Of a stretch of DNA of 64,000 nt, positions 1 through 49,887 are shown one piece after another. The stretch's first letter is position 1, and each line of letters starts with the position of its first letter. Under the pieces are notes generated by a model. That model was not told the DNA's origin, did no database searches, and saw nothing but the letters and a program-made list of their open reading frames with translations. A program made the position numbers and the translations under genes. Origin of the DNA: Schmidtea nova (Eukaryota); NCBI GenBank assembly GCA_044892505.1, contig CM097884.1, positions 63,302,001 through 63,366,000 of the forward strand, written 5' to 3'.

Positions 1-352
1 ATACATAACGAATGAATTAGTGCAATGCAACTTTCCTTTCCATAACTTTGCTGAATGGAATGAAATAATCATGCCAATGATGAGCGGAAAATATGTATGG
101 TTCTTCTAAAATTGTCATCAAGTGCTCATGAATCTATGAGAAAACATAACAAAAGCAATTTTGGGAATAGAATCAATTGTTGCTAATATTACAATATCCG
201 AAATGTGACAAGTCAATGGATAGTGCACTATATTGTTGCCATTTTATAAAATTGCTTAATCAGAGTGCTGCTCTATCAATTCGCGATACTTTAATAGAAA
301 TTTTAATAGATAATATTATAAATAACTATCATAATTATCTTTTTGTTTCACC

Positions 353-550
353 TTTGATCTTTTTTATTATTAATATCAATAATTCCCATAATGACTATAG
401 ATAAAAATTTCTTTAAATAAGTACACAATATTTCGGCATAGCCTTTATTAAGTATGTAATACACACTTGATAAAGGCTGTGCCGAAATATTGTGTACTTG
501 TTTAAATACATTTTGATCTATATTCTTACCATTATGGGAATATTAGAAAT
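353..550. repeat. Palindromic (foldback) repeat with a hammerhead-like core on both strands, inserted in the RLE element
   Basis: Arms such as tatagataaaaatt...gtacacaatatttcggcatagcctttattaag pair with cttgataaaggctgtgccgaaatattgtgtac...ttttgatctata; core TTGATAAAGGCTGTGCCGAAA at 467-487 and an inverted variant at 431-452. Confidence 0.75.
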
Positions 551-1722
551 ATTAGAAGATTGTCAACAGATATAAAGAAATATGATCCCTATATTGGATA
601 ACATAATCAATCAAACGGATGCTATTGACAATCAAACATGTTTAACAGAGATCATGAAAATCAATATGAATATACACAAAATAGCACAAAGTCAATTCGA
701 GCTAACATGCATTATTAGAGCCAAATTTAATAAAAAACCAAAAGAAGAACTAGAAAAACCATGGGAAAAAGAAAATAATGAACATAGAGAATATTTCCAA
801 TACTACACTCCCATAAAGTATTAATCAATAAAATATTTCACTTACCAATCACATGGATAATTACTAATTCAGAACCTGATCTCAAGGAAATCAGAGAAAC
901 CGTATCCAGTCTTGACAATACAGCACCAGGAATGGACAAGATAACACTCTCAGAATGGAAAAGCATATCACGGAAATATGAATTTTTACTATCATTAAGC
1001 TGATTACTCCTTAGGAAAAGAAAATACCCTGAAGGATGGAAGAAATTTAGAACAAGAATGATCATGAAACCAGGAAAAAATAACATGCGACACGACACAG
1101 GAGCCTGGAGACCTCTTGCAATCATGGACATATCTTACAGAATTTTCATTACAAAGCTAAATAATAGATTGTTAAACTGGATCAAGGCCGGTGACCTCAC
1201 ATGTAGTAATCAAAAAGCCATAGGAGCACCAGATGGTTGTTCTGAGAATAATCTTACCATTCACTTACGCAAAGAAAATATTCATATCGTTTGGTTGGAT
1301 ATATCCTAGGCTTTTTGTTCAATACCTCAAGAAATAATCTGGACAACTCTTACCAAAATGGGTCTTGATTAAAATACGATATCATTGATAAGAGACATGT
1401 TTACAAGTGTCGAGACTTATTTTGAATGTGATGATGAAAAATCAACATTAGTACCTATAATAAAGGGAGTGAAGCAAGGATGTCCCTTATCCATGACAAT
1501 TTTCTGTCTATCAATAGACTTTATCTTAAAAGACATCCTTTCAATCTACATGGATACAACATAAGCATACTTGCATATGCTGATAATATAGTATTATTAT
1601 ACAATTTCTTTGAACAAATACAAGAAATGTTATTAAAAACTCAAAAACTGGCAGAAATCAGTAACCTAATATTCAAACCAAGCAAAGGTGGTTATTACAG
1701 TAATCAGAGCAGAATCACATGA

Positions 1723-2215
1723 CTTAATCTGAATAACGTTCAACTTTCGTTGATCAATGACGAGAGAGATCAGGTGACTTCAGTGGCCATTCAATTGACC
1801 CTCGTCGACCTATCCATCTATGAGGCAATTCTTCGTCAAGAAATTGACGCACTGCTGTTACATAGTGAGGAGGAGCTCCATCCTGCTGAAAATAGAATTC
1901 TTCATTATCAAACTTCTGCCGTATTTGTGGGATAACAGTATCTCTCAAGAGATTTAGATACAGGCGATGTGTCACAGTTGTATGGAAAAAGAAAGGTCCA
2001 ATAAAACTTTTGCATGAAATGCTTGCCCAAACTGTAACCCAGGTTGATTTAACTGTTCTTCATTTGTGATATGCGGATTTTCCGTGGTATAATAGACACA
2101 GTTATGCCTATTAACAACGCCTGAAAGCTTAAAATTTAATATTACTTTAATATTACTGTATACTGTAATATTACTGTAATATTAATTACTGTATACCTAC
2201 TTTTGAACCACCCTG
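1723..2215 (-). mobile_element. Truncated Tc1/mariner-superfamily transposon of maT (DD37D) type
   Basis: VNRHNCVYY...QPGVTVWASIS...IGPFFF and FQQDGAPPHY...WIGRRGSIEWPLKSPDL; one terminus CAGGGTGGTTCAAAA (minus) at 2201-2215 next to TA. Confidence 0.85.
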
Positions 2216-3619
2216 TATATAGATACATTGTGTCAACTTCGACATTCAAAAAACAGAGGACATTGATCATCATCATGGAGAGAGCACTAAGGAATACGGA
2301 AGAATTATTAAAATCAGATCTTCATCCAGTCCAAAAAATAAATGCTTATAAAATATTTATACATTCTAGATTCATCTTTTTATTAAGAAACTACAAAGGG
2401 AACCATAAACTATATAGTGATAGAAATAGAAGCGTACAACAGAGATCAAAATAGCTTGGTTATGATAAGAAGATAGAACGAATTATAAAAGATATGTGTT
2501 GGATTATTTTAAATTGTAACATTTTTAAGAAGAAAAAAGTTTGTTTTAATAAATAAAAAATATAAGAAAAGATAATTTTAAATTTAAAATAAATCTTGCT
2601 TTTTATTTTTGATATTTTTAATAATATTTTAAGAATGATAAATGATTCTTACAATATGCTATATAACAAATTTCAACAGATAAACAACAATTATATCTAA
2701 ACTGATTGCTTACAAGGAGGACTTGGAATACGCTCTACTGTAGATGCATACTGGAGACATGCATCGTACAATTCACGAGGAATGCTGCGGAAACATCTTC
2801 AAAAATCCACAATATTATATGGATGGTGTTTGGTGAACTGTGGACAGAAATGAAATGTCAAGGACATATAGCTAAAACAATTGGAAAATGCGAATATGCG
2901 CGATATCTCATACAAAGCAACAAACTTAATGATGCTCAGTATAGGTTTCTAGTCAATGCTCGTAACTTCTTGCTGCAACTGAAATACACAGCATACAGAT
3001 TAAAAACTGTCATGGATATATTCTGTAGACATTGTCATAAAGCTGTTGAATGTCAAGCTCACATTTTAATCACTGAAGTAAAAATGATTGCAAGAAGAAA
3101 TAAGCATACTCATGTGCTTAAAACTGTGTCTGACTTCCTCACTGAAAAAGGATTCCAGGTGGACATTGAAATATCACCAAGAGGAATTAACACCAGATTA
3201 AAGCCCGACCTTATCATAAAATCGACCAGAGACAACGATCATATACATACTTTAGACATCACAGTGCCAAATGAAAGCAAGGACAATTTTGATAATGCAA
3301 GAAAATTAAACTTTTAAAAATATAAAGATCTGGAGTTAGAAATTGGTCACCTATATAAACCAAAAACAACAATTTCAGCACTTGGATGAAGGGACAGAAA
3401 GAATAACTCAATCGTGAAGAAAAGGCCTATCAAAAACTGAGATAAAAAGTCTCGCAATGAAATGTGCTACAAGTGCCGTAAATTCCGCGTATCACATTTA
3501 CCGTGATCATTTATCCGGTAGTATAATCTATATGTTTAAAGGATTTAGCATGCTCTCCTTACTGCCTTAATTGGATCTTTTGGCGTAAAAACAAACTGTT
3601 TTTAAATAAAACTTCTTTT

Positions 3620-4470
3620 TACATCGCGCTAAAGCCGTTTACCGTTTCTTTGAACGCTGTTTATTCATTGGCATTGGGTTTGAGTTTTTGCTTGTTTTTT
3701 CTTGGGATATTGTTTTGGATTTAGAATTAAATTATTTTTCTTTATTTTCTATTGGTTTAATATTTTTAGATAATTGTGAATGATCTAAAGTTTTAAATTT
3801 TTTATCGAATGGCTTTTTAAATATAAAATTTTCTTGGTTTTCTGTTGTTTTCGATGTAGTTTTTAAAATTAAATTTTCATCTGATTGAATTTCTAAATTT
3901 TTTAATAAAATTTCTTTGAAATTTTGATTTTTATTAAATATATTTTATTGGTTGTCGATGTTTTTAATGGGATTTTTTAAATTTAATTACGATTTTAAAT
4001 TTAAATCATTTTCTTCTTGGTTTTTTATTAAATTTTTATCAAATTTATTTAACTTTTTAAAATATTTTTCTTAGTTATCGATGTTTTGAGTAGGCTTTTT
4101 AAAATTCAATTGGGAAATAAAATCTTTGTTTTTCTGATTTTTAATATTATTTTGTTGATTTTCATTGAATTTATTTAGTTCTTTTAAAATATTGTCATTT
4201 TTTGAATTAATTGGATATTCGGGGGGGGGGGGGGGTTTGTCATTTCGAAATCTTTTTGGATTTGACCTGTTTTTGTACGAGCAGTTTCATTGCTTTCTGG
4301 GAGACAGAGTCGTTTGAGTAGAATCATTAAGGCTTCTCAAATAAAATATTTTTCATTGTTTGAAACGTTAATCATTTTGGTTAATTTGGAATTAATTGAC
4401 CTGATTTTTTCTTTTATCATCTGGATGTCGTCGGACGAACTGGCTTGTTGGCGGCCGGCGTTCATAGCGA
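3620..4470 (-). mobile_element. Probable 5' fragment of a second NeSL/R5-type element, tail-to-tail with the first
   Basis: Decayed K/N-rich reading frame on minus (MIKEKIRSINSKLTKMINVS...), compositionally like the N-terminal region at 60540-60968, starting with the same antisense 28S-like sequence as the element ending at 61149. No catalytic domains present. Confidence 0.5.
4438..4470 (+). other. Short diverged 28S rRNA helix-89-like sequence (not an rRNA gene)
   Basis: aactggcttgttggcggccggcgttcatagcga versus the conserved eukaryotic LSU sequence AACTGGCTTGTGGCGGCCAAGCGTTCATAGCGA (recalled). Confidence 0.75.
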
Positions 4471-4960
4471 GACTTTTTGTAGGCTGTTTATACATTGGCA
4501 AACTTAGAAGTTTGTCTGGTAAGCAAAGAACATTTGGAAACTAAAATAGCTGCCGACGTCGTGCTTTCATATATTTTGCACCTTTTCTCAACCTCGCAGT
4601 AAAAATTGGGATCTTCTAAATTGGAATCCTCGTCACATGTGGATTCATTAGATCCAACACGAGTAACTGCTTCAATTGTTTCATCTTGAGATGTCTTACG
4701 GCGTTTTGATGGGTGAATAGACGACATAGGTGCAGGTTTTTCTGTTGTATATCCAACATAAGAATCAATCTACATTTTAAACAATTATTTTTCTTCGGAA
4801 CACAACCATTCGCCATCTGAATTTGTAATGTCGAAGACATGTATCAAATCCTTCTTAAACTTTTCGCTTTTTCTCTTCCAATATTTTTCATATGCATGAA
4901 TCAATGCACTTATCTTTCTATTCACCTGTTGTTTTGACACCATAGGAAAACTTCAACTTC
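4471..4960 (-). mobile_element. Decayed ORF, probably from a DNA transposon; family unassigned
   Basis: Minus-strand frame FPMVSKQQVNRKI...VFDITNSDGEWLCSEEK*...GYTTEKPAPMSSIHPSKRRK...STTSAAILVSKCSL with stops; resembles invertebrate transposon-associated proteins as recalled, not searched. Confidence 0.4.
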
Positions 4961-5806
4961 AACTTCACAATACTTTTTATTCTAATTTTTGTTTCTTTCA
5001 CTGTCTGATGGAGTCCTAAATATAGTCCAACAATATTTTTCTTGAGAGGAATTTTGCACAGCTCATTCAGTTTTACCATATACAAGGGTATTTCTGAATG
5101 TCTGGTGACTTTATCTTTTAAATTTCCTCACCATTGACTTGAGCAGTTGTTGACAGCATTTGCCGATAATTTAGATGCTATGATCTAAAAGTTAAAAACA
5201 TTAATTGAATTATTCATGCAAATTTACTAGGCATTTCTGTAGTTTTAATAATTGCTAATGAAAATCAGAAAACACTAAACTTCGGATAATTAAAAAAATT
5301 TTAAATTCTCCAAAAATGCTCGTTTGTACCTAATGGACTCTCAAATATGCCTTCAGTTAACTTTACTTAAAAAATTAATAATTCAATTCTTTAAAATTTT
5401 GAATGAATAAACTTACCATTATCCACACCACAATTTTAAAAACCAAAAGTAACACACAAAGAATAATCAATTTCGTTCTATTAATTGTTGTATATTCTTA
5501 ATGACTTTGATACGAATTAATAAATTCATTCTTCTGCTGAATTTGTCGATGTCTATTTCACTACTTTGCCAATTTTAGATCTATCATTTTCATACCTTTG
5601 TTTAATTTTCAATCATGCTTTCCCTAACTTTCCAAATATTTTATTCTTATTTATCAAACTGATTGTAGATTAGTGCATAAATCTCATGACATTGGTCTTA
5701 AGAATTTCTATGCTCGCCAGGTTTTTTAAGTTTATTAAAAATACAAAAACTCATCAAAAGAAACACCAGGAGTTACAAAATTAAATACGAGGATTTTAGT
5801 CATAAC

Positions 5807-5810
<4 letters not shown>

Positions 5811-5895
<85 letters not shown>
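5811..5895. repeat. (TA)n microsatellite
   Basis: Direct inspection. Confidence 0.95.
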
Positions 5896-5900
<5 letters not shown>

Positions 5901-7329
5901 ATGTTACTAATGAGAGACAATTATTGTTAGTATTTTGTTAGTTTGTTGAGATTGGATGCAGCCAAAGTGTATTGTAGGAGACTGAAGAGTTCAACAGAGT
6001 CACCAGTAAAACTTGTGTCGGGACTGTTGGGGTGCGTGTTGTTTAAATGAGTGTGTGTATGCGATTTAATGTATGTAACAACTAATAAACAATGAATAAA
6101 AATTTTTATAAAATTTATTATGTCTAAAACAAAACCAAACAGTAAATGTCAACCTGTACTCACGTAATCACTAATAGTCTAAAAATTGCAAAAAGTTTTT
6201 TTCCACCGATGTATCCTCTGTTTCTTAATTTTCATCAATTTTCAACTTTCTTATTTTTCATAAATTCACAATTTCATTTATCATTTCATAATTTCATTTC
6301 CGTTAACCATCAATATTCTATTTTTAATTTCTATCGTAATTTTTCTTAGTGGCTTTTAATTATTCTTATAAGCTTTTCAATTTTTTTAATCATTATCACC
6401 AATTTGTCATATTCCTATAGTAATTTTCATTACTATTAGAAATTGATTTTTTATTAATTTTTTAAGTTTCAAATATTTTTTAATTATTTTAATTATTCTT
6501 CTTTTTTTGTTTATTTGAATTGGCATTCAAACAAAAATAATAAAGGGGGGTTATCCGATGTCCGCACGGACGCCCCCATTGATAATATCGGCGGTCACAA
6601 TAATAATAACAACAATAAAAAATAATAATAGTAAAAATATACATCATTAACATAACTTCCCCATTTAAAACCGGAGGTTACACTATTTACAAAAATTCAA
6701 ACGTATGGTATATACATATTTCAACTTATATGTTGTGTCGTATGTTTTCTGTACTGTGGATTAACAACTCTTAACAAAAATATAAAAATATACAGCATTA
6801 ACATATATACATGTGTGTGTGTGTGTGAACATAAGTGTGAATATTACAGCAGTATAAAATGCGACGTCATTCGAGTTATCTCGAGTGTGCTCAATTTGAC
6901 CGGTTTAGTGCGCTCGAATTAATTCCAGTGTGCGCATTAAGGGGTTAATATCATTACATTTAATACTCTTATCATTTACGTTGAATTATTTAATTCCTCT
7001 TATCATTTTTATGTATTTCATATTAATTTTAGTACTATAACTAAAGTATTATTTTATTTAATTATTTATTTACATAAAATATTATTTATTTATTTTATTT
7101 TTTAATACAGAGTATCAAACTTTTATGTTATTTGCATAATTACTTAACTGTTTTTTATTATTAAAGCTACTTTATTTATTTTGATTTTGATTTTCTTTCT
7201 TATATTCATCAATGAAAGACACAAATAGCAATGAATAAAAACTAATTATCAATGTTTTCATTGCTGAAGTCATTAATTCAATTACTTGCACATCTTTTGG
7301 TGGTTTTTGTATTTCAATTTTATTGAAAA

Positions 7330-7700
7330 AACTTTATCCGACAATAATAGATGATTCACTGGATAATTTAAAGTATCTATCGACCATCTTCTGTCATCTA
7401 ACCATAAGTTATAACACCCTTAGGAAATTCACCTTGGGTCAAAGTGAAATTGGGCAAAGTCTTTCTCTTGGATATCACAAAAGATGGAAGTTTACCACCA
7501 TCAGCAATTACATAAAGAACAACTGTAAAATTACATTTCACGGAACCAGTCGTATATAATTTTATGTTCTCACTGCCTTCTTTATCCACAGTAAAATTTG
7601 ATGGCATATTGAAGATATGAGAACTTCATCCTTTTTTAATTAAATCAGTATCTCGAATAATATTGTCCCTGTATGTTTCTGATGCAAAGCGTAAGTCCAA
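7330..7700 (-). mobile_element. pogo/Tigger-family transposase fragment
   Basis: MPSNFTVDKEGSENIKLYTTGSVKCNFTVVLYVIADGGKLPSFVISKRKTLP matches the pogo DDE-1 pattern FDMP...TTG.EK..FTVVL...ADG.KLPP.VIFK. Confidence 0.75.
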
Positions 7701-7749
7701 AGAATGAAAGCTTCCTGGATAAACGAGTTTGAGAAAGATGTCATCTAGA

Positions 7750-8312
7750 ATATGTCATCGAAAATCATTGATGTTTACAATTTTTGGGGATAAAAGTGGC
7801 ATAACCTGTACGTATTTCGCTAACAAAGGTCTCTGAATTAATTCCACTTACTATAGCAACTTTGTGGACTCATACAGGCGTAATCGCCAAAAAGCCACGT
7901 GTTCTCCCTCTATGGATCCTCAAAGACAATGTCCCAATCCCCGAAAATGCATAAAATGCTGTGTTTGAGAAAATGGATTTGTTCTCTCAGATCACCCTCC
8001 CTACAGTCTCGATCTTGTGCCCATCTTGTTACATATCTATTCAGGCATACGAAAAAGCATTTTCGAAGCAAAATCTACCAAAATACTGCAGATTCGCAAC
8101 ATGATGTGAAAGTTTTCTTAAAAGATCAAAATCCAATTTTCTTCAAAAATGTCTTTTTGGAACTTTTGCATCGCTGTAGGAAGTGTGTGAACCACAACGG
8201 GTTTTATATTAAAAATAAAGCCTACATACTCCTGTTGTTCTTATGTTCAAATATATAGTTCATGTTGGTTTTCTTTAGCACTTAGTCCGGGTACTTATTG
8301 AACTCCTCACTT
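7750..8312 (+). mobile_element. Mariner transposase 3' remnant
   Basis: Decayed MLTIFWDKSGI...INSTYYSNF...KDNVPI...DHPPYSLDLVP; end tacttattgaactcctcac resembles the TIR of the mariner at 54807-61317. Confidence 0.7.
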
Positions 8313-8479
8313 AAGCTTAAAATAATTTTGCTGTGCATCTAATTAATGTTATCTTAAATCAAATTGAAATCGGGATTAATAAAAATATGATCTTTAACAA
8401 ATTATGAAAAACGAATTGTAAGTTTATCTTTATTCTTTTCAAATTAAATATCAATAAAAAAATATTTTCTTCTATACAA

Positions 8480-9569
8480 TACCTAAAATACAAAATAATA
8501 TATAAATAATAAAATTAAATGGGGGAAAATTTATTGGACGAATAATGTGATTTTTTGAAGTCCGGAAAAGAAAAAGACACCGCCAAAAAATTGGAAAATG
8601 AGAATTTGGGAACAAACAAAAGAGATAAACAAGCAACCAAAAACAAAGGTCATTCCTAATTAATAAGTACAAAACGCGAAAGGAATTTTCAAAACGAAAA
8701 TAAAAACAAGTAGGAAAATAAAATCTTGACAGCTTGTCAGATAACAGGAGTGCGGATAAAAGTCGGCTTAAAAAGGAAAAAGGATATCTGAAATAATCTA
8801 GACAGCTATCATAGATAAAACGAGAATTGGGAGAAAAACACAAGATGACCGTGAATCAAAATGCAAAAAACAAAATTATCTCTAGTACCACAAAATTTGA
8901 CGAGTTATTAAATGGAAGGACACACAAGCTTCAGACAGAATTTGTGGGAGACAAGAATTATTAGAGAATCAGGAATTGGGACAGAAATCGTGAGAGGAAA
9001 TAATTGAATTAGAAGTTGTTAAAAGAATTTGTTAGAGAATTTGAAATTGATAAAGAGAAAAATTAAAGCTCGAACAGAAGTGAAATTGAACGATTGAAGT
9101 GGAAAATTCGAAACGAATTTGAAATACGAAAAGAGAAATTTGATATACGAAAAGAAATTCGTTAATTGAATCAGTTGCAGAAATATAATTTGTGTTGTAA
9201 AGGCAAAGAAAGCTAAGCAGATGAGAATTTTAAAGACTAAAGAATATTGATTGAAGAATAAAGTCAAAGCGCGTAAACAATCGAAATACATTACCAATAT
9301 TTAATTTAAATCAGTGTTTAGTAGATGTTGTTTTCTGGACTTTGTACAATAGAGCTATTCTTCACAAAGTGTCGTAATAAGCTCGTATATTTGTCTAAAG
9401 AGGTATTGAATTGATTGTGATATTTCGAATCGTGTAACTCATTGTAATAATCAATAAATGTTTGTGTCATTGAAAATTGTTATACTGTGGGTCATTAGAA
9501 GGCACGCTTTGGAGTCAGCTATTTGATTGGTAACTTTTACCATTTCACAAACAACCCAAAAACCCAACA
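8480..9569 (+). mobile_element. LTR-like repeat, 5' end eroded; homologous to the solo LTR at 46947-47951
   Basis: Shared blocks (gacagcttgtcaga; gtgggtca...cacgctttgga.tcag.tatttgattg.taact...accatttcac.aacaacc...aacccaaca). Confidence 0.6.
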
Positions 9570-9725
9570 AATAGAAAGTTATGGCAGTCCATTTCAATTG
9601 TTATTTAAATAAATAACCCTTGAAAAAGGCAGTGCCGAAATTTTACGTTAAAATAAAGATTTCTTTTGGTTTTTATTTGGATAAAGGAAAATAAAATGAA
9701 CTTGAAAGAAGATCAAAGGAAATTG
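9570..9725. repeat. Member of the palindromic hammerhead-like repeat family (right half)
   Basis: TTGAAAAAGGCAGTGCCGAAA at 9620-9640; family terminus gatcaaagg near 9712-9720. Confidence 0.6.
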
Positions 9726-10618: not shown

Positions 10619-10806
10619 GTTAGTCACAATTAAATTGTTATTAGAGTTGATTAAAATNNNNNNNNNNNNNNNNNNNNNNNNNNNNNNNNNNNNNNNNNNN
10701 NNNNNNNNNNNNNNNNNNNNNNNNNNNNNNNNNNNNNNNNNNNNNNNNNNNNNNNNNNNNNNNNNNNNNNNNNNNNNNNNNNNNNNNNNNNNNNNNNNNN
10801 NNNNNA

Positions 10807-11813
10807 TAGATCAAAATTTTTTTTTATGAACAATAACACATTATTGTGTTATTGTTTATAAAAAAAAATTTTGATCTATAGTCATTATGAGAATTATTGA
10901 TAATAATAATAAAAAAAGATCAAAGGNNNNNNNNNNNNNNNNNNNNNNNNNNNNNNNNNNNNNNNNNNNNNNNNNNNNNNNNNNNNNNNNNNNNNNNNNN
11001 NNNNNNNNNNNNNNNNNNNNNNNNNNNNNNNNNNNNNNNNNNNNNNNNNNNNNNNNNNNNNNNNNNNTATAATTATTTTACAATTTTATATAATAATTAC
11101 CTAACATTATCTGTTTATTTATTTATTTATTTATCTGTGATTCCGGAACGCACAAAGTTAACTACGATTACTTTTTTTTATTCAATGTTTTCCACATTTT
11201 ATCTTTTTGGGGATTTTTTGAAGAGAGTTTATGACCATATTGATCTTGGATATACAGGAACTAATTATAAATTCCACACATTCGATTAAATTATATTTGT
11301 GTGACAAGCTTATGCTTTTCTTGGTTAAGGAGATCATAGTGATCATCATTATTTCTTAATTAATGTGAAAAATCTTTTCAACAAACAAAAACAAGCTTAA
11401 ATCATAAATCTACGAATAAATCGAAAAGTAAGTAGCTAATTATTATATTCCATATCNNNNNNNNNNNNNNNNNNNNNNNNNNNNNNNNNNNNNNNNNNNN
11501 NNNNNNNNNNNNNNNNNNNNNNNNNNNNNNNNNNNNNNNNNNNNNNNNNNNNNNNNNNNNNNNNNNNNNNNNNNNNNNNNNNNNNNNNNNNNNNNNNNNN
11601 NNNNNNNNNNNNNNNNNNNNNNNNNNNNNNNNNNNNNNNNNNNNNNNNNNNNNNNNNNNNNNNNNNNNNNATGATGACTATAGATCAAAATTTCTTTAAA
11701 AAATAACACAACTTGATAAAGGCTGTGCCGAAATATTGTGTTATTGTTTAATGAAATTTTGATCTATAGTCATTATTATGGGAATTATTGATATTAATAA
11801 TAAAAAAAGATCA
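10807..11813. repeat. Cluster of palindromic hammerhead-like repeats interleaved with N gaps in the ABCG intron
   Basis: 10807-10926 is a hairpin lacking the core; 11671-11813 has arms atgactatagatcaaaatttc...aataacaca / tgtgttatt...aaattttgatctatagtcatt enclosing TTGATAAAGGCTGTGCCGAAA (11713-11733). Confidence 0.75.
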
Positions 11814-12295
11814 ANNNNNNNNNNNNNNNNNNNNNNNNNNNNNNNNNNNNNNNNNNNNNNNNNNNNNNNNNNNNNNNNNNNNNNNNNNNNNNNNNNNNNN
11901 NNNNNNNNNNNNNNNNNNNNNNNNNNNNNNNNNNNNNNNNNNNNNNTATATTAATATATAATTATAAATAAATAAAAAATGGCTTAGTTTTATCCATTAT
12001 TAACGTAAATGTTTATTGCCGACAAGAAAAGTTAATTTAATTGTTTCCTATCTATCAATATCAAAGTATTGTATTCGCGATTCCGTTTCCACGATGACAA
12101 TTAGAAATAACGATTGAATAAGAAGAGAAATAGCCAATCTATCCAGAGAGAAAATAGTCAAATTCTCATTGGCTAATTACATATATGAGATAATCTAACC
12201 ACTTATTTTCCCGAAAAAAATTTCCAAATTTTCTGATCATTTCTTAATTTTTATCTCTATTTGTTACATTTATTTGATAATAATTAGCACACAAA

Positions 12296-13252: not shown

Positions 13253-13628
13253 ATTTTCAATGATATCGGTTATTCTCACTTTGATCGTTTTGTTTTTATT
13301 TCAGAAATTTTCATTTTTTTTATAAAGTCTATGTATCAACACATATTTTTAAAAGGTACTCGAATTTTCATCACGGCGTTAATACACGCTAAAAAAGGCT
13401 GTACCGAATATTAGTGTAACTTTTAGAAACATTTTTTCTCTATAAAAAATGAAAATATACAATTCCCTATATTTCAAAAGTAGCTAAAAAAGGCTAAGAT
13501 CAAAACTTGGCTATTTTGAGTTTATGCTTATTTGCAAACAAATTCAGCAAAATTTGTATTTAAAAGTCAGGTCGGTATTATAATCTCTGTTAATGGACAA
13601 TTTTTCTATAAGTTCTTTGATTTATGAG

Positions 13629-14192
13629 TGTAAAGGTTATATCTACATTGTTGTTACTTTTATTATTTCATTATCATTATTATTATTGTTAACGCTTTTA
13701 TTAACAAGGGCGTCCCTGCGGATACAGGATGCCCCTTTCTTTTTATTATATGGTAACGTTGTTGGATTTTCTTTATTCGTCTCAGAATCGTTTTTCTTTC
13801 GTTCTCAACTGGGGTATTTTTTCCTGGATTTATCGTGACTATTTTTGTTGGATTTCTTTATTCGTCTCTGAATCGTTTTTATATTTTGTATCAAATTCTG
13901 TATATGCTGTATATGTATATATAACTCTCCAGTTATCAATTTCAATTGTTAATTTTTTATTCAATTTCTGATTGTCATGGATAATTGATATTTTATTTTC
14001 CATATTCAAATATTTATTTTTTATTTTCAGGCATATAATAAGAGACATCCAACAACGTTACCATATAATAAAAAGAAAGGGGCATCCTGTATCCGCGGGG
14101 ACGCCCTTGTTAATAAAAGCGTTATCAATAATGATAATGATAATGACAATAAAAATAATAAAAATAACAACAATGTTGATATAACCTTTACA
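13629..14192. mobile_element. Foldback MITE with TGT...ACA termini, roughly 140-bp TIRs and a 5-bp TSD (Ginger-like)
   Basis: TGTAAAGGTTATATC... / ...GATATAACCTTTACA; ATGAG at both 13624-13628 and 14193-14197; GC hairpin gggcgtccctgcggatacaggatgccc in each arm. Confidence 0.8.
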
Positions 14193-14292
14193 ATGAGGTA
14201 AGTCATAATTATTATTGTAAAAACAATAGTGATTTTATTTTTATTTAATATTTTCCACTCTAAAATTAAAAGTTCTCTATTTTCAATGTTAG

Positions 14293-15286
14293 ATACTTAA
14301 AGACAGAGGAATATGCAAAAGTCCAAAAGTCAATAACAGAAGCCAATTGTACATTGGATAATTCTCTTTTAGAACAAACGTACGAAATTCTTTCAAATTC
14401 GAAATATAAAGTCAGATGGTGCAATCAACTACGAGGATTATTGTGGAGACATTGGGTAAACATTGTGAGAGATAAAAATCTTTTTCTAGTTCGGTTAGGC
14501 CAAACGGTTTTCCTTTCAATAATGATTTCTTTGATATTTTTCCAACAAAATTACAACGATCCGAGGAGTCAGCTTAATCTGAATGGAGTTCATTTTCTCC
14601 AAACCACTCTAATGACTTACAATATATTTTATACCGTACTTAACGCTTTTCCTTCAGATTTGCCAATATTTTTTCGGGAGCACAGTGCCGGCATGTATAG
14701 AGTTGATGCGTATTTTATTAGCAGGAATATAACGGATTTGTTGATTTTTGTTTTATTGCCAGTAATTCTTTCATGCTTTGTCTTTGGCTTGGTAGTCACA
14801 GACCATTCTATTGAAAAGTTTATAATTCTTATGCTTACGGATATCGCTGTCTGTAAATGTTCAGTTTCTTTGGCATATCTATTATCGACATCAACTGTAG
14901 ACATAGATTTTTCATTGGCCATTACTCCGCCTATTCTATATTTGTTTATGCTGTGTTCGGGTTATTTAATAAATTTGGAAAGTATACTTGTGCCATTCAA
15001 ATATATTCAGTACATCTCATGGTTGCGATATGGATTCGAAAATCTAATAATAAATCAATGGATAGACGTTCACAATGTCACATGTATTTACAATATCTCA
15101 GCGACAAAATCGCCATGTTTCAGTGAAGGTAGCGACATGATAAAGTTTCTCGAGTTTGAACCATCGAAAACAAGATATTACTACAATTTTATTATGTTTC
15201 TCGTAATTATCGTTGTCTTTCGAGTTGGTGCGTTTTTGTGTTTGGTTATTCGATGCAGAGAAACAAAAAGAAAGCCAAAGAAATAA
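14293..15286 (+). CDS. ABCG half-transporter (white/scarlet-like), terminal exon encoding the ABC2 membrane domain
   Basis: YKVRWCNQLRGLLWR...RLGQT...LNLNGVHF...FPSDLPIFFREHSAGMYRVDAYF...YISWLRYGFENLIINQW; acceptor ttag at 14292; in frame with the upstream exon (QELATK/YLKTEEY). Confidence 0.95.
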
Positions 15287-17628: not shown

Positions 17629-18825
17629 CAAGTATGCTGTGACAAATCGTCTTCATTTTATTATCCGTATTATAATTAACAACAGCGGCTTAATTTCACT
17701 TTTAATATTCAATAAATGTATAATTAAATAAAGTGTTTTTTGATTTAAGAACAAGCTACTTTACCAATTTTGGAACAGTATACTTCCATTTGCAGCTATG
17801 AACCCTGAGTACTATGTTGTGACATTTCTTAGAGAATCATAACATTTGTTCAAGTTTTAACTCTGATACACTATACCAAAGTCACGGGTCACGATTGTTG
17901 TGGTTGCATAAATTGTATAAATAAAATTTAAATGTGCAAAGATTCTAATGTAAAGCATTTAAAATCCAAAATTTTATATAAATTTAGAAAAAATAAATTA
18001 AATTGGAAATCAAAATTCATATTGTTTACCAAACTCGAATTTTCCTTAATTAACGACTTTACATTTTGTACACATTCTAATGATTTTCACCTATTTTTAA
18101 AGTTTTCTGACAAATCCAGAATCACCATGTTCTTCACCATTACATGATCTATATCTGATCCGTTTTCAAATTTTAATTCGATAAATTAATTATTTATTTA
18201 TTTTCTGTAAATTCCCACATATTGAATTATACATTTTCTTTAACTCTCTATTATTTTCAACTATATTCTTTATTACAGTTTATATTAGAGATTTAATTAA
18301 TTTCTATTCCATTTTTATTAAAAATTATTTGTACAATTCTCGATTTGTTGTCATTTTGATATAACAAAAAAACGCCGTTATTTGCTTGGTTATGAATTTT
18401 GATTAACGGGACGCGCGAAGTCGGATTAAAGTCAAATCGTGCCAACATTAATTAATAAGCCTAATTCGAGTGTACTGAGGATAAATCAAAATTTACGGGT
18501 AGCTTGCATAGTAACTCAAAGCTCTATCAATCTCAAAATAAAATTAAAATTAAAATTAATTTTTTATTTTTCGCTTCCTATTCCTGCTATTTTTATGTAT
18601 TTTCTCGAGATACTTTTTGTGACATTTTTAGTTATCAAGTTTAAAATCATTTTTTATTTTGCTTTTTTTTAAATTTGACTTGGTTTACATGAGTGTTTAT
18701 TTTATCACTTTATTTAAACAAATCTTCAATGTATTGTATTTTAGAAATTTGAAATAAAGTTAGATATATAAAATAAAATATAACATTTTAAACAGAATTA
18801 TCTTTTGGTTTTACCTTTGATCTAT

Positions 18826-19000
18826 TTTTAATTAAATCAATAATTTTCATAAAGATCAATTTTTTGTTGCTGTTAGGTACACGATATTGTTGCAGACTTT
18901 ATCAATTACCCACTTGATAAAGGCTGTGCCGAATATCGTGTACCTAACGACTAAAGAAAATAGTATTAATTATTAATATGAAAATTATTAATTTAAATTT
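18826..19000. repeat. Palindromic hammerhead-like repeat
   Basis: cctttgatc start; arms ttaggtacacgatatt / aatatcgtgtacctaa; core TTGATAAAGGCTGTGCCGAA at 18914-18933. Confidence 0.7.
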
Positions 19001-19486
19001 TAAACAGAATTAAAATAAATAATTATAATTCAAATATGAAAAACTTTCGTTAACCACTTAACCCGCGGTTTTTCTCGATAATTTAATCTATATCTGAATA
19101 CAAAAAAACAGATTTTGGTTGGAAAATACCAAAACACGTGTAAGTTTACGGTTCAACCCGAGTGGCAGTCGGGCTTGCGCCGTTACGTAGTTAATAGCAG
19201 TCTTGACCAATTTATTTACAATAGTTTAAAATTGTAAATATTTAATTACTTTTCAGATTGGCTTAAAATTAAAATATCTGGGTCAAATGCTGATGGTGTA
19301 TCAAATTTAATTGCTCAAAAGAACCTGAAAAAATGAAAACAGAACGCTGGTTAAATCGATTGTATTTTATTATCACATCATGCACAAAATATTGAAAGTA
19401 TAATTGGTTATCACTCGATTGTGTAGTTAGGGGTCAATTAATCTAAATCTATATTTTAAAAAGGCTTCTATGACAGTGAATAAAAT

Positions 19487-24619: not shown

Positions 24620-24835
24620 AAATTTTAATTCAATAATTTTCATATTAATTTTTGTAAGACTGAATAAAAAAATTCTGTTGTTATTTGGTACACGTTATCA
24701 CACTTTAACATACTTGATAAAGGCTGTGCCTTAACATCGTGCCGAAAACATACAACCAATCAAATTTTTTTGATCTAAAGTCTTAAAAAAATTAATATGA
24801 AAATTATTGAATTAAAGTGATCAAAAGTGAAACTA
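24620..24835. repeat. Palindromic hammerhead-like repeat with a rearranged core, in an AK1 intron
   Basis: cttgataaaggctgtgccttaacatcgtgccgaaa at 24713; arms aataattttcatattaattttt / aaaaattaatatgaaaattatt; terminus gatcaaaag. Confidence 0.65.
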
Positions 24836-27570: not shown

Positions 27571-30153
27571 CAGGCGAACCCGCTTAATATCATGCTTACG
27601 GTTCCAAAAAAAATCATGATATTAAGCGGGTCGTGATAATAACCGAAACTCGCTTAATATCCACATACGTGACATTAACCGAAAACTCGGTTATTATCAT
27701 TATTCATGACAATAACCGAAATTTTATTTCAATAGAGAATTTATTTATGCATTTATTTATGAAAAAAAGACATTATATTGACTACTTAGTAATAATTTAT
27801 TTATTTATTTATACATATACATATATTCGCTTGCAAATTTATTTGAACCATTTTTCTAATGTTAATTGACGTGTTTTGGTTGCATTTTTTCATATAGTGT
27901 GCTGAACTATATTATCCAACTGATTTAAACAGCCCCAAGCTGCAACATTGTTATTTGTTAAAAACATTTGTATATTTTTAAAAGATTCTAAAGCAATATT
28001 GTTGGTTATAGTTGTTGCAGTTGATTCTGTTTCATCGTCGCTATCATCACTTGCCACATTATTATTTTCATTTTGCTTTTTTTGTTCCTCGATGGATTCC
28101 ACAATCATTTGATCATTCAAAGGTTCTGAACATTCTTCAATGATATCCATTTCCAAATATTCATTAAAATCTAAATCCAGTTCATTTATATTCAAAGCAA
28201 GTTATTCACTTTCAATTAAATCTGGAGCTTTATTACAAAATTTTGCCTTTTTGAAATAATTTTGAACAGTTATGCTGGTAACCTTGTTCCATGCTTCTTT
28301 TATTAAAAGTACCGCATCCAATAGATTAAGTTTTTTTACTATTTGCCCAGCTTGTATTTGATTAGTGGAAGATTCAATTGCTGCTAGTAATTTCAATACA
28401 AGTAATCGACGATAATGGAACTTAAAATTGCGGATAATGCCTTGATCACACGGTTGAACTAGTGATGTTACATTGGGTGGGTGGAAAATTTATTCGATGT
28501 TATTAAATTTTAACTTTGGATGCGCAGAGCAATTGTCTAAGACTAAAGCAATCTTCTGACTTTGAGAATACAGTTCTTTATCCCATTGATGTAGCCATTC
28601 TTCGAATATAGAGGACGTCATCCAGGCATTTAAATTATTTTTATAGTTTACAGGTAACTGTCTAACACCTCGAAAGCAACGCGGTGTTTTAGATTTGCCA
28701 ATTACTAAAACTAGTTGCTTCTCACCATCCATACTGGCACAAAGTAAAATAGTAACTTTCTTTTGATACTTTACTCCCAGAACGTTCAGTTGCCTTAAAG
28801 ACATGTGAACCATTCGGCATTGCACGCTACAAAAGGCCAGTTTCGTCGGCGTTGAAAATATCTTTTGGTTGATAGCGGCGGAATACATCGACCAAGGTTG
28901 TAGATAACCATTTTTCTGCTGCAGGAACATCTGCATCAACTTTTTCCCCGTGTGCTTTTTTATATACGATTCCAAATCTTTTCTTCTACTTATCTAACCA
29001 TCCATTAGTGGCCACAAAATTTATGACGGATAGATCTCTAGCAAATGCTTCAGCTTTGACACGCAGTATTTCACCGATGATGCTAATGTTGGTGGCTAAA
29101 GCACCCACAAACCATTTATACAATGCTTTATCTACATCTTCAGCTCTGCTATGCCGTTTTCTTTTCTATTGCTGTTTAAGTTTACAACATCAGATAATGC
29201 ACTTTTGTTTTTATAAATTTTGCTCACTGTTGATGAATCAATGTTGAATTTCTTAGCAACAGCTGCATACGTTTGTTTTGGTGGTCCATCACAAGCTGCT
29301 ATAATATCCAATTTTTGTTTTGCAGTTAATTCTGTTCGTTTACGTTCTGTCATTTTTGATTTAGCCCTTGTAAGAAATTATAAATTACATACATGTGTAT
29401 TAAAACAACAATCACTTTAATCTCAAAAAAATTAAGAAATCTTATTAAAATTTACCTCTGTTTATATCAAAACCCTGTAGATTTTACTTGCTTCCAATAA
29501 ATATATGTATTTTAAATTAAAATTATCAAGTTTCTGATTAGATATGTATTTCAAAACCATTTACAAACTTTATTAGATAAAATAATTATTGACAGAACTG
29601 CATCTAATGTTATTAACCAACTGCGTATTATCATCAACTGTAGGTGTGTTTACTTTTTAAATGCTCACCTGTTACATTTTGGATGAGTACATTCAATATA
29701 TGTATTTATGTGTAAATAAATGCGTTTTTTAAAAGATTTGAAAAACGAAATAGGAAAATTGTTTAAATATGATTTTCACGGTTTTCTATCACCATCTTGC
29801 GTTTTTATTGTGCAATAAGTTTGTTTTTATAAGAAATATAAGAAAACAGTTACAAAATATAGGAAATGTAAATTATATTTGAAGTTTCAGTTTTAAATTT
29901 TTTAAACTTCTTTTGTGTGAACTTTGATAAAAAAGATTATAAAAAAATTCATAAAAAATGATATTAAGCAAATTTGAAATATCAAAATCAAAAAATATTC
30001 TTGATAATAAGCGGGAAATGGATATTATGCAAGATGATATTAACCGAGTAAAAATGTATTGATTTAATAGTGTTTGGCAAGTGGATTTTGGGTTTTAGTG
30101 ATATTTAAACGGGTCGTGATAATAACCGAGGTGATATTAAACGGGTTCACCTG
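27571..30153 (-). mobile_element. Complete but inactivated Tigger/pogo DNA transposon
   Basis: TIRs CAGGCGAACCCGCTTAATATCA / TGATATTAAACGGGTTCACCTG with TA flanks; CENP-B HTH (RTELTAKQKLDII...FNIDSSTVSKI), FNADETGL, LVIGKSKTPRCFRGV, NAWMTSSIFEEW, LVLDNCSAHP, QPCDQGII; several frameshifts. Confidence 0.9.
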
Positions 30154-39362: not shown

Positions 39363-42300
39363 TGACGAAGGTACTACAATAGCCCCCGCCGAAGTACGCG
39401 GAGCGTATGGAAAGGGAGATACGTGATTCAAAAGTCGGAGTGAAATTCGACAAGGTAGTCTGCTAGATACTGTGGAGGATGGCGTATGCATTTTTGTGAA
39501 TGAAGAGTGTGGAACGTTTAGCATGCTGAATGGGTAGAGGGGAGGGGTTTCGGAGCTCGGGTCATATCAAGGGTGTTCGATTAAATCTTCGTCGGATGGG
39601 AGATGAAAGGGAAGCTGATTGTCCTGCTCGCCTAGCACGAAAGCAGGCTTTAGGCGGTTCAGACTTATGATGTGTGGTGTACCATCGATGTCCAGTTGGG
39701 ACGTGTTTTGTATAGTTTTATGACGGGGAAGGATCCTTTATACCGGGGCTTCATGTTAGATGATTCAACCCATTTTAACAAGGCGTGTGAAGCTGAGGTA
39801 AGTGTGTTTCGCATGTATGGTTTGTAAGAGGTTGAGTATGTGAAGGATGGGTTGGAGTCTAAGGCGAGGAAGTGACTGTGGGCCTGGTTTTTCTGTTGTA
39901 ATGACGATTCAAAGTCTGTCTCTATAAGCTTTAATAGCATGCGTGTGTTAAAACCGAACAGTAATTGCGCTGGAGATGCTCCGCTTGAGCGATTGGGTAT
40001 GTTGTGCCATCCTAATAGTACAAATGGCAGCGATTTGGTCCATTCAGAGGAAACTGCGAGGATGCGGAGTGAGGTCTTGATAGTGCGGTGAGCGCGTTCG
40101 ACGAGGCCATTGGTCTGTGGATGGTAAGCAGAAGTTCGTAGATGCTTAATGTTGAGGGCGTATTTTAACAGTTCTGATTCAATAATGGTTGTAGGAATGC
40201 CGTAACGGGAGAACCAGGTAGATGCTAGGTAGTTTGTGACTGTAGGTGCTGTAATATTGGGTATATGTACTGCCTCTAACCAACGCGTCTTACGATATAT
40301 CATGGTGAGAATGAAGGGAAACCCGTCATCAGCTGGGAGAGGTCCTACTAGGTTGATGTGCAGAATGTCGAAGCGAGAGCCGGTGGGAAAAGAGGTGAGC
40401 GGTGGTTTGACGTGCTTGTTTACTTTATGTTGTTGGCAGCCTTGGCACTCGTTTATTCATTGTTTACCATCTTTGAATAGAGCGTACCAGGTGACTTACT
40501 GGCGGAGTAGTACGCATGTGGATTTGATGCCGGGATGGTGCAGGTTATGGACAGAGAAGAACGCTTCTTTGCGGAGTGATTAGTGCAGTATGGTGTGCAG
40601 TTTTTTATAAGATGTGTCGTAATGTACGCGTCGATGAATTTGTGAGAGTCTTTGAATCTGGAGATGTCGGTCTCGGATGGGGTTGTGGAACAGAGGATCT
40701 CCGATGAAAAGAGGGGGGGAAAGGATATTGAATTTACGACTGCACGCGAAAAGCAGTCTGTGTTGACGTTATCTCCTCCTGCCATGTGCTTGATCTCGAA
40801 ATCGAACTAAGATAAAAATGCTAGTTGACGGAACACTTTATTTGACGGATCCTTCATAGTAAGGCAGTGTAGAAGTGGTTTCTGGTCGGTGAAAACGGTG
40901 AAGTGTCTGCCTTCAAGGAAATGCCTGAAATGTTTAATGGAAAGCACCATTGCTAGAAGCTCTCTGTCGAAGGCGCTGTATTTCGTTTCTGTTTGCGAGA
41001 ATTTGCGGGAGTAAAAATTCAACCAGGCGATGAATGCCATCTTTGATTTGGTGAAGAACGGAAAATGCTGCTATGTCTGAGGTGTCGGTGGTGAGGGTAA
41101 ATGGAAGGTCAGTGTGTGGGTAATATAGCGTTGCAATGTTGATCAGGGCCCTTTTAACGGTAGTGAATGCCAAGTCTGTCTTGTCGCACCGGAAATGGTT
41201 CACATACGTCGGCTGTTAGTATATGGCCTAGAAAGTGGACGCGTGGTTTGAAAAACTGGCACTTATTGGGGTTGATCTGTAGGTTGTTCTTGTTCAGGAT
41301 ATCGAATATTTGTAGTAGGTCCTCTGCATGTGAAGACTTATCGGGAGAGGCGACAATTATGTCATCTAGATAGGCTAACGTGTGACTCAGCTGCCGGAAG
41401 GTGGAGTGTCTGTGCGACGTTCCTGAGACAAAACGGCATGAAGAGGTATTCGAAGTTCCGAAGGGGGTCGTGACTACTGTTTTTGGGATATCGTCTGGGT
41501 TAACGGGAAACTGGTGGAATGCTTTGGCTAGGTCGATTGTGGAAAAAACCGTGTTATTGAAAAAGCCTGAAATTAGGTACTCGATAAAGGGCATCGGGTA
41601 AGCATCGTGTACGGAAACGCTTTTCAGTGCGCGGAAATCGCCAAACGGACTGTATGAGCCGTCTTTCTTTGTTACCACGTGGATTGGAGATGACCAATGG
41701 GAGGAGATATGTCGAATAATGCTCTTCTCTTCGAGTTCAGATAATTCGAGTTCCACGGCCTGACGTCTGTTGATTACAAGTGGCCGAGCGAGACCGTGTT
41801 GTGGTGTACAAGGAACGGTGGTGATGAAATGAACTGATTTTTTGATATGGGGGGTGTGTGGTAGACTTGGTCAGGAGATTCGGGAAATGTGCGTCAATGA
41901 CTGGCTCTACATTATCTGCTGTAAATAAATTGTAGTTCGTTGCGCTACTATCGTGGAGACTGGTTCAGGGAGCTGATATATTCGTCTGTTCTTACAGTCA
42001 ATGTTCACTTCTTCGTTCGTTAGGAAATCGAGGCCTAGTATAGGAAATGTGGTATAAGCGATATAGAAGGAGTGCGAGAAATGTTTGGGAAAACCTGGAA
42101 GGCGAAACTCAATTATTCTTGTACCGGAGAGCAGTATGTGAGTGCCGTTCGCCGCTACAGCTGAGGATGAGCAGGGTGTGTCTGCGATGAAGATGGTAAG
42201 TAGTATTGAATATGACGAACCTGTGTCTCTGAGGAACTTTAAGGTGCGTTGCTTGGGCTGACTGTATTCTTCAAACATTTAGGCGTTGATCGTGAAGTTT

Positions 42301-49380: not shown

Positions 49381-49887
49381 TTAAAAAATTCGCAATCCGA
49401 ATAAATTTCCGAATGAAATGAGCCAAAGTTTCAAACTGTTTTTCTTGTCAGATTGCAACTGAAACGCGCGAGAAAGTTCGGCAATCGAAGCATTCGTCCG
49501 ACATGGATGCATCGAGAAATATGGCAAACCAAGAAATGGGTGCTCAATTTGTACGAGGTGTTGGAAATATTCCACGTCAAATTTCAGTTGAATCAACAAC
49601 GATCGAAACTGATCTGTTGCGAGTCCGTTTCCGTTTTCAGCTTCAGCTCGAATGTAGAGAACTGGTGCACTAAACGCAATGGAATATCCTATACGATATT
49701 CTATTTTGAATATTTCTGATTCCTCCTTGTTACAACAATTATCCGGTCGTATTAAACAAGTTTTGGTGTAAATTTCGAAAGAAGATTTGCATTTGCTGTG
49801 TTGAATTGAGTACCAGACTTTGGATTTGTCCATTTTTAGGCCTTCATAAAGCTCAGATAGTTCTTTAAAATACAAATCGATATCCAT
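49381..49887 (-). CDS. ATG10: Autophagy E2-like conjugating enzyme Atg10, single exon
   Basis: EYRIGYSIAFSAPVLYIRA and QIEHPFLGLPYFSMHPCRT (catalytic HPC), then LWLISFG.LFGL; first ATG at 49887, open to the stop at 49381. Confidence 0.9.
   Translation of the reverse strand: MDIDLYFKELSELYEGLKMDKSKVWYSIQHSKCKSSFEIYTKTCLIRPDNCCNKEESEIFKIEYRIGYSIAFSAPVLYIRAEAENGNGLATDQFRSLLIQLKFDVEYFQHLVQIEHPFLGLPYFSMHPCRTNASIAELSRAFQLQSDKKNSLKLWLISFGNLFGLRIF

What the first reader, a model, noticed from the sequence alone, without database searches (positions are those of the whole stretch)
353..550. Dispersed palindromic repeat family with a U3-A8 variant minimal hammerhead-like core
Seen: TTGA(T/A)AA-A-GGC-nnn-GCC-GAAA recurs at 467, 9620, 11713, 18914 and 24714, degenerately near 13390 and 50115, and inverted at 431-452. 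Loops vary (TGT, AGT, TAT) while the GGC/GCC stem is kept. Known: the hammerhead core is CUGANGA-stemII-GAAA with a C3-G8 pair; U3-A8 is a compatible covariant; Penelope-like elements carry minimal hammerheads with tiny stem III that cleave as dimers. Inference: these 200-250 bp CCTTTGATC...GATCAAAGG foldbacks may be non-autonomous ribozyme-bearing retroelements (PLE/retrozyme-like) rather than ordinary MITEs. This copy has the core on both strands.
Basis: partly seen in the sequence, partly recalled or inferred. Interest (0 to 1): 0.7.

Follow-up and report, generated by a model that had tools for sequence, protein, structure and literature searches.

The report
Back-to-back Penelope retrotransposon end stubs
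This mirror-image repeat is two short end-pieces of a very abundant Penelope-type jumping gene joined back to back, each with a small, predicted self-cutting RNA motif of a known type, and it is likely rebuilt at every insertion, sometimes probably from two different RNA copies, rather than being a mobile element of its own.

Summary
The motif is real (6 window hits, 0 expected; 46,297 genome-wide) and matches the published U3-A8 minimal hammerhead of Penelope-like element (PLE) ends. The autonomous parent is in the same genome: 2,767-bp tandem units, 865-aa RT plus C-terminal GIY-YIG ORF, motif just upstream of the ATG. Window 328-541 is two 5'-truncated ends of it joined head to head; the supposed terminus GATCAAAGG is ORF coding sequence, present at one end only. 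Insertions have one long and one short end (50 of 55), unique junctions (40 of 47) and AT-microsatellite targets, so they are neither DNA MITEs nor a self-propagating retrozyme. In this copy the minus-strand core has G5A, and a full-length transcript cannot fold either ribozyme. Dispersed copies show no selection on G5. The architecture is published, and this scan noted it before, once in this genome. Leads: arms carry different alleles in 12 of 46 older insertions, suggesting two RNA templates; a minor junction class sits at the predicted cut site, but two other families do not show it. Cleavage is untested.

The parts
328..458 (-). Long arm: 5'-truncated PLE end (pLTR 3' part plus tail), reading outward to ORF codon 20
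   Evidence: blastn to parent unit, 86.8% over 136 nt, reaches the last base of the tail; parent sequence
328..365 (-).
   Evidence: the exact inner border is blurred by AAT repeats
431..451 (-). Hammerhead core of the long arm, with G5 changed to A and loop UAU; predicted inactive
   Evidence: G5 essential is established knowledge
452..462 (.). Head-to-head junction; both arms begin 7-9 nt upstream of U3, inside the family-wide start cluster
458..541 (+). Short arm: 5'-truncated PLE end without tail; carries a different indel allele from the long arm
   Evidence: blastn 83% over 88 nt; allele difference visible
463..495 (+). Intact type I minimal hammerhead: stem I 463-466/492-495, UUGAUAA 467-473, extra A 474, stem II 475-483, GAAA 484-487, self-complementary AUAU 487-490, predicted cut between 491 and 492
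   Evidence: sequence; folds; family table; definition in PMC4209133
9611..9720 (+). Older-subfamily arm with A7 and AGU loop, tail motif at 9711
10806..10926 (.). Young palindromic copy lacking the core; arms begin at about the predicted cut site; both ends run into N
   Evidence: 98.8% to parent
11671..11814 (.). Palindromic copy: plus arm with intact core at 11713, minus arm starting near the cut site; ends run into N
13279..13505 (.). Old decayed palindromic relative
   Evidence: weak
18793..19004 (.). Old palindromic copy, long arm on the left, broken GAAA box
24624..24816 (.). Old palindromic copy with a small insertion in the GAAA box

Best explanation
The palindrome is two 5'-truncated ends of an endonuclease-bearing Penelope-like retrotransposon joined head to head, likely made afresh at each site when the element's protein cuts both strands of an AT-rich repeat and copies RNA onto both ends. 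Shown: the arms match the parent's end, point outward, stop at two fixed places about 36 nt apart (one each), start in a narrow zone at the 5' edge of the hammerhead, and have site-specific junctions. Inferred: reverse transcription starts at two internal RNA sites (as shown in vitro for a lizard PLE), runs to the 5' end of a linear transcript that begins about 10 nt before U3, and the two cDNAs are joined by microhomology repair. The hammerhead is predicted to work as a dimer in the parent's RNA; in the stubs it is a passenger that decays neutrally. In a minority of insertions the two arms probably come from two different RNA molecules.
For: Parent element with the motif once per 2,767-bp unit and an open 865-aa RT/GIY-YIG frame; 981 exact end-to-ORF junctions, arrays up to 5 units. 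Of 55 non-redundant head-to-head pairs, 50 have one long and one short end, and the 2 long-long pairs are tandem arrays whose outer ends are long and short. 89 of 110 arms start at -13..+4 (U3 = +1); 46 pairs have both arms short, 9 both long, none mixed. 40 distinct junctions among 47, made of arm-derived pieces. Both flanks could be called in 31 of 55 pairs and all 31 carry the same AAT, ATT or AT repeat on the same strand. Variants at G5 (871) are not rarer than at the loop G (585). Stems I and II and the self-complementary segment change together across families. Architecture and internal priming as in PMC8557442, PMC3846280, PMC11167929.
Against: The transcript 5' end is inferred from DNA only. 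Only 2 of 30 ORF-spanning copies start in the same zone, so long copies need another template (multi-unit or circular RNA). Two other hammerhead-bearing families show no such start cluster (spacings). A6 variants (243) are rarer than N7 variants (522), though the N7 pattern allowed other loops and includes older subfamilies. The dimer fold is not favoured by nearest-neighbour energy for this family (-7.6 against -13.0 kcal/mol for two monomers). No empty site or target duplication could be established for the window copy.
Confidence: 0.88

Rival explanations
1. The foldback is a non-autonomous, retrozyme-like retroelement that is transcribed, self-cleaves and is mobilised as a unit.
For: Uniform 200-260 bp size in 46 of 55 pairs; stubs far outnumber ORF junctions (46,297 motifs against 981); a few direct tandem runs of single ends exist (L080-L082); animal retrozymes derive from PLE ends (bioRxiv 10.64898/2026.07.22.740005).
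Against: 40 of 47 junctions differ; arms are inverted, not tandem; hammerhead pairing probability is 0 in a full-palindrome transcript; G5 decays freely; some junctions cut into or remove the core.
Confidence: 0.05
2. The second arm is made by fold-back self-priming on one template (Arkhipova 2013 proposed this on an antisense RNA), not by priming on both DNA ends.
For: Most pairs share alleles: 50 of 51 classifiable pairs in the first sample and 33 of 46 in the older-subfamily sample, more than random pairing gives; some junctions are perfect hairpins.
Against: 12 of 46 older insertions and the window copy have arms of different recurrent alleles; the two ends stop at two different fixed sites, as in vitro priming predicts.
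Confidence: 0.12
3. It is a DNA MITE with long terminal inverted repeats.
For: Short, AT-rich, palindromic, very high copy number.
Against: Ends are asymmetric; the 'TIR' is the ORF start of an RT gene; variable centre; continuum to RT-bearing copies.
Confidence: 0.01
4. The hairpin is a mir-31-like microRNA precursor.
For: Rfam mir-31 match at 412-507, 46.2 bits, E 3.5e-07.
Against: Below the gathering score of 51; also matches on the other strand; the 5' part of the mature consensus is mismatched in the alignment; thousands of repeat copies.
Confidence: 0.01

Closest known systems
Inverted 5'-truncated pLTR insertions of EN+ Penelope-like elements (Arkhipova 2013, PMC3846280; Craig 2021, PMC8557442)
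   Same: Head-to-head inverted end, 30-40 bp tail on one side only, pLTR reaching into the first codons of the ORF, partial tandems, microsatellite targets.
   Different: Here the pLTR-only stub is the dominant product (46 of 55 pairs) with a sharp start zone at the hammerhead's 5' edge, so the family mimics a MITE; some insertions have arms of two alleles.
Minimal hammerheads of metazoan PLEs (Cervera and de la Pena 2014, PMC4209133)
   Same: Type I, U3-A8 core, unpaired base between 9 and 10.1, G10.1-C11.1, 4-bp helix I, no helix III with palindromic 15.2-16.2, dual motifs on opposite strands.
   Different: Stem II has only 3 pairs (7-8 in the schistosome families); about 46,000 exact copies, against the roughly 1,300-9,000 per genome quoted in the parts read.
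Poseidon of Anolis, PAc (Frangieh 2024, PMC11167929)
   Same: Two internal end points that define the tail; ATT-rich targets; uncleaved RNA as main template.
   Different: Different clade; here the ORF starts 66 nt after U3, not inside stem II; nothing was assayed here.
Nematis and Hydra clades of C-terminal EN+ PLEs (PMC8557442)
   Same: Cys-rich linker before GIY-YIG; DKT and CxCX5C as described for Hydra; AT-repeat targeting; under 3 kb.
   Different: The CCHH motif, absent in Hydra, is present; no curated clade references were in the tree.
Animal non-LTR retrozymes (bioRxiv 10.64898/2026.07.22.740005)
   Same: Non-coding, type I hammerhead, PLE-derived.
   Different: Retrozymes are direct tandem repeats with a ribozyme per unit; these are inverted one-off pairs.

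Membership tests
EN+ Penelope-like element insertion | Single ORF with RT and GIY-YIG endonuclease | tested here: met
   865-aa ORF, RVT_1 E 1.3e-07; VY..C..C...YIG, R, EH, E, N aligned with relatives; Pfam GIY-YIG model itself did not hit at E 0.001 but PF01541 is listed on close relatives (accession name recalled)
EN+ Penelope-like element insertion | Tandem or partial tandem units forming pLTRs | tested here: met
   2,767-bp spacing, arrays up to 5 units
EN+ Penelope-like element insertion | Inverted 5'-truncated copy at the 5' end | tested here: met
   59 head-to-head pairs among 147 arms
EN+ Penelope-like element insertion | 30-40 bp tail at one end only | tested here: met
   50 of 55 pairs long plus short, ends at +126 and about +90
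EN+ Penelope-like element insertion | Target-site duplication | tested here: inconclusive
   targets are microsatellites; no empty site for the window copy
EN+ Penelope-like element insertion | Spliceosomal intron retained in some families | not testable with these tools
   needs RNA; an AG lies at -11/-10 but no leader or exon sequence appears in 47 junctions
PLE minimal hammerhead | Core boxes with C3-G8 or U3-A8, extra base after A9, G10.1-C11.1 | tested here: met
   against PMC4209133
PLE minimal hammerhead | Helix I closing the motif, UH at the cut site, palindromic 15.1-16.1 | tested here: met
   ACAC/GUGU, UU or UC, AUAU; AAUU in 9 of 13 older-type loci; AUAUAU in two other families
PLE minimal hammerhead | Self-cleavage as a dimer | not testable with these tools
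   needs an assay; junction class at the cut site is suggestive but has a rival
Non-LTR retrozyme | Direct tandem repeats each with an intact hammerhead | tested here: not met
   arms are inverted; one core here has G5A
DNA MITE | Symmetric terminal inverted repeats and a fixed internal sequence | tested here: not met
   asymmetric ends, variable centre, RT parent
Hydra clade PLE | DKT and CxCX5C linker | tested here: met
   against PMC8557442 section 11
Hydra clade PLE | CCHH motif absent from the endonuclease | tested here: not met
   CxxC and two His are present
Nematis clade PLE | CCHH plus Cys linker and placement with Nematis RTs | tested here: inconclusive
   motifs present; midpoint tree of 40 unnamed proteins sets it apart from linker-less proteins and nearer nematode ones, with weak deep support and no curated references

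The most novel reading that the evidence does not exclude
Each insertion is built by a paired complex of two element RNAs, held by the self-complementary hammerhead segment and a protein dimer, one RNA priming on each cut strand; mixed-allele palindromes record RNA heterodimers, and the junction class at +26 records hammerhead cleavage in the living animal. This genome's tens of thousands of stubs would then be a natural read-out of PLE RNA pairing, start site and cleavage.
Probability: 0.25. Interest if true: 0.62.

Novelty: new member of a known kind. Interest (0 to 1): 0.3.

Why it matters
As a feature it is ordinary: a known footprint of a known class, useful mainly as a warning that PLE stubs can pass for MITEs or microRNA hairpins. 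Its value is as a statistical record. How PLEs make inverted ends, and what their weak hammerheads do in vivo, are stated as open in PMC8557442 and PMC4209133. Mixed-allele arms make the one-RNA versus two-RNA question directly testable, and the intact, recently active parent offers an assay system.

Tried and rejected
Rfam scan: no hammerhead family among 16 matches at E up to 5; mir-31 below threshold. tblastn of the parent ORF found nothing in the window; the RT fragments next to the copy belong to an unrelated decayed non-LTR element. Empty-site search: the one long homologue aligns only from window 556 on. Sequencing runs: no RNA holder listed; contigs of runs of unknown kind gave loose ends at -10..-7 but cannot show starts or cleavage. 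Splice or leader origin of the -10 boundary: no foreign sequence in 47 junctions. Polymerase pause at -10: rejected because 23 of 25 ORF-spanning copies that reach the zone pass it. Cut-site junctions in two other families: 0 and 3 matches, so no general support. The downstream control was swamped by a satellite, 35 of 50 listed loci. A search for other U3-A8 families gave mostly mutants and unrelated repeats, plus one candidate family seen at 2 of 30 loci. No covariance model was built; pattern counts and natural copies were used instead. Lunse 2017 (PMC5785218) is not held; seen only as a citation.

Full report
Observation. The motif is in the window where stated: exact at 467, 9620 and 11713, one mismatch at 18914 and on the minus strand at 431-451, two at 24714; 6 matches against 0 in 100 shuffles. 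The region is one long hairpin. The minus-strand core has A in place of G5, so only the plus-strand core is intact. 50115 could not be confirmed. A relaxed pattern occurs 46,297 times in the 1.25-Gb genome, with 0 for the reversed control.

The motif is a complete minimal type I hammerhead. Around the core the window shows stem I (ACAC 463-466 with GTGT 492-495), an extra A after A9, a 3-pair stem II, GAAA, the self-complementary AUAU and a UU site with the predicted cut at 491/492. The parent's end folds into this shape as its lowest-energy structure, with a second stem I segment starting at -9 (U3 = +1). Cervera and de la Pena (PMC4209133; parts 1-2 of 4 read) describe the U3-A8 core, the extra base, the palindromic 15.2-16.2 and dual motifs on opposite strands in PLEs, with no monomer and low dimer activity. 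Two further families in this genome have the C3-G8 core with the same extra A (11,490 matches, control 114); their stems I and II are different sequences that still pair, and their segment after GAAA is AUAUAU. In 9 of 13 older-type loci of our family among the 30 it is AAUU. This cross-family pattern is the evidence that the motif is selected in source elements. Against easy dimer formation, the double-hammerhead fold of this family scores -7.6 against -13.0 kcal/mol for two monomers.

The parent element. [quoted passage not shown] The ATG is at +67. The long end of the stubs is ORF base 60, so the GATCAAAGG read as a terminus is coding sequence. The end-to-ORF junction occurs 981 times, in arrays of up to 5 units. 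The protein has DKT and CxCX5C, as described for the Hydra clade, but keeps CCHH, which Hydra lacks (PMC8557442 passages, sections 11 and 12 and a four-term supplement search). A tree of 40 unnamed proteins leaves it Nematis-like without firm placement. No part of this ORF is in the window.

Architecture. I fetched DNA around the first 100 motif matches on contig C1; this is one chromosome end, not a random sample. It held 147 arms, 118 of them in 59 head-to-head pairs, 55 after dropping 4 duplicated loci. Fifty pairs have one long (+126) and one short (about +90) end; 2 long-long pairs are arrays with long and short outer ends, 1 is short-short and 2 were unclassified. Both flanks could be called in 31 pairs, and all 31 show the same AT-rich repeat on the same strand; 12 had one callable flank and 12 none. 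Junctions were 40 distinct among 47 and built from arm sequence. This is the published PLE layout (PMC3846280 and PMC8557442 passages), and the two ends match the two internal priming sites shown in vitro for a lizard PLE (PMC11167929, parts 1-2 of 4). The window copy fits: long arm 328-458, short arm 458-541.

The stubs are passengers. In a transcript of the whole window palindrome the probability of stem I or II is 0; in the right arm alone stem II is 0.86 and stem I 0.15. Single changes at essential G5 number 871, against 585 at the loop G; the G5 count is inflated by junctions that cut into the core (9 such pairs among the 100 listed) and by local clusters, so the reading is only 'no depletion'. 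A6 changes (243) are fewer than N7 changes (522; looser pattern, includes older subfamilies), a weak result the other way.

Where the arms start. 89 of 110 paired arms begin at -13..+4; 46 pairs are short on both sides, 9 long on both, none mixed. Of 30 ORF-spanning copies only 2 begin in that zone, 5 begin downstream, 12 upstream and 11 run off the fetched DNA (some share an array). The zone is therefore not a general pause. I infer the 5' end of a linear transcript, with long copies made from multi-unit or circular RNA. Drosophila Penelope has an internal promoter and an intron ending at helix I (PMC2377424 passages), so a splice site is possible, but no foreign leader appears in junctions.

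One RNA or two. In the first sample 50 of 51 classifiable pairs agreed at a diagnostic indel, but 37 were of one young allele. In an older-subfamily sample of 74 loci, 51 had a partner within about 200 nt and 46 could be typed; the script called 13 discordant, of which one is a 1-nt decay of the same allele, leaving 12; random pairing gives 24.3 +/- 3.2 (four loci overlap the first sample). The window copy is discordant too. Pure fold-back predicts near zero. Two templates in part of the events is the simplest reading; later gene conversion or an RNA with two different ends is not excluded. Paper searches for this point listed no paper whose title or abstract start reports it; the library lacks most subscription journals.

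A cut-site class. 278 loci (control 13) have both arms starting within a few bases of +27; of the 50 listed, 33 have a gap of 0-4 nt, i.e. starts at about +25..+27, 14 have 7-10 nt around the AATATT microhomology, and 1 has more than 10 (hand count). Fourteen distinct loci viewed are regular stubs without the core. In the downstream control, 9 of 15 non-satellite loci have an arm starting at about +26/+27. This fits RNA cut at 17/1.1, roughly 1% of insertions. But +26 is also the inner edge of the stem I hairpin in cDNA, and the same test gave 0 and 3 loci in the two other families. I put the cleavage reading at about 35%.

Verdict. A new, very abundant member of a known kind. The scan has noted the same architecture in several other genomes and in this one. 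Earlier notes call the host a planarian; I did not test that. The retrozyme preprint was read in part 1 of 5 and the review PMC6765202 in passages; other papers were seen as search listings only. Interest 0.3.

Noticed in passing
window 10806-10926: Young palindromic stub with no hammerhead core; arms begin at about the predicted cut site. One of a class of about 278 loci.
   Followed up: yes
L098-L127; e.g. G000:C1:7690872 and 7691834: Two more hammerhead families with C3-G8 core; one shows direct pairs about 963 bp apart, the other lies next to a linker-less Penelope-type RT/GIY-YIG ORF (L118, L119).
   Followed up: partly
L240, L252: Possible fourth family: U3-A8 core with a 6-pair stem II; seen at 2 of 30 loci.
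   Followed up: no
L080-L082 (G000:C1:30026544-30027522): Direct tandem run of single element ends separated by ATT repeats, retrozyme-like in layout.
   Followed up: no
L065: Two element ends 3,209 bp apart separated by kilobases of AAT repeat; very long microsatellites often flank insertions, cause unknown.
   Followed up: no
window 556-3317 and 56038-61028 (minus): Decayed non-LTR retrotransposon beside the finding, and a related less decayed one with an 820-aa RT frame.
   Followed up: partly
window 14270-15286 (+); 49381-49893 (-): Single long frames for an ABC-2 type transporter membrane domain and an autophagy E2-like domain.
   Followed up: no
window 13629-14192: A separate inverted repeat with 119-nt arms at 91%, unrelated to the PLE stubs by blast.
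   Followed up: no
window 39665-42278, 55132-55911, 28490-28993: Fragments of an LTR retrotransposon pol, a mariner-type transposase and a DDE_1 transposase.
   Followed up: no
runs X1-X4: The parent ORF is held at 0.82-0.91 of words by runs under two organism codes in one study.
   Followed up: no
G000:C1:3074735-3152458: A satellite array carrying a short palindrome that matches the control pattern.
   Followed up: no
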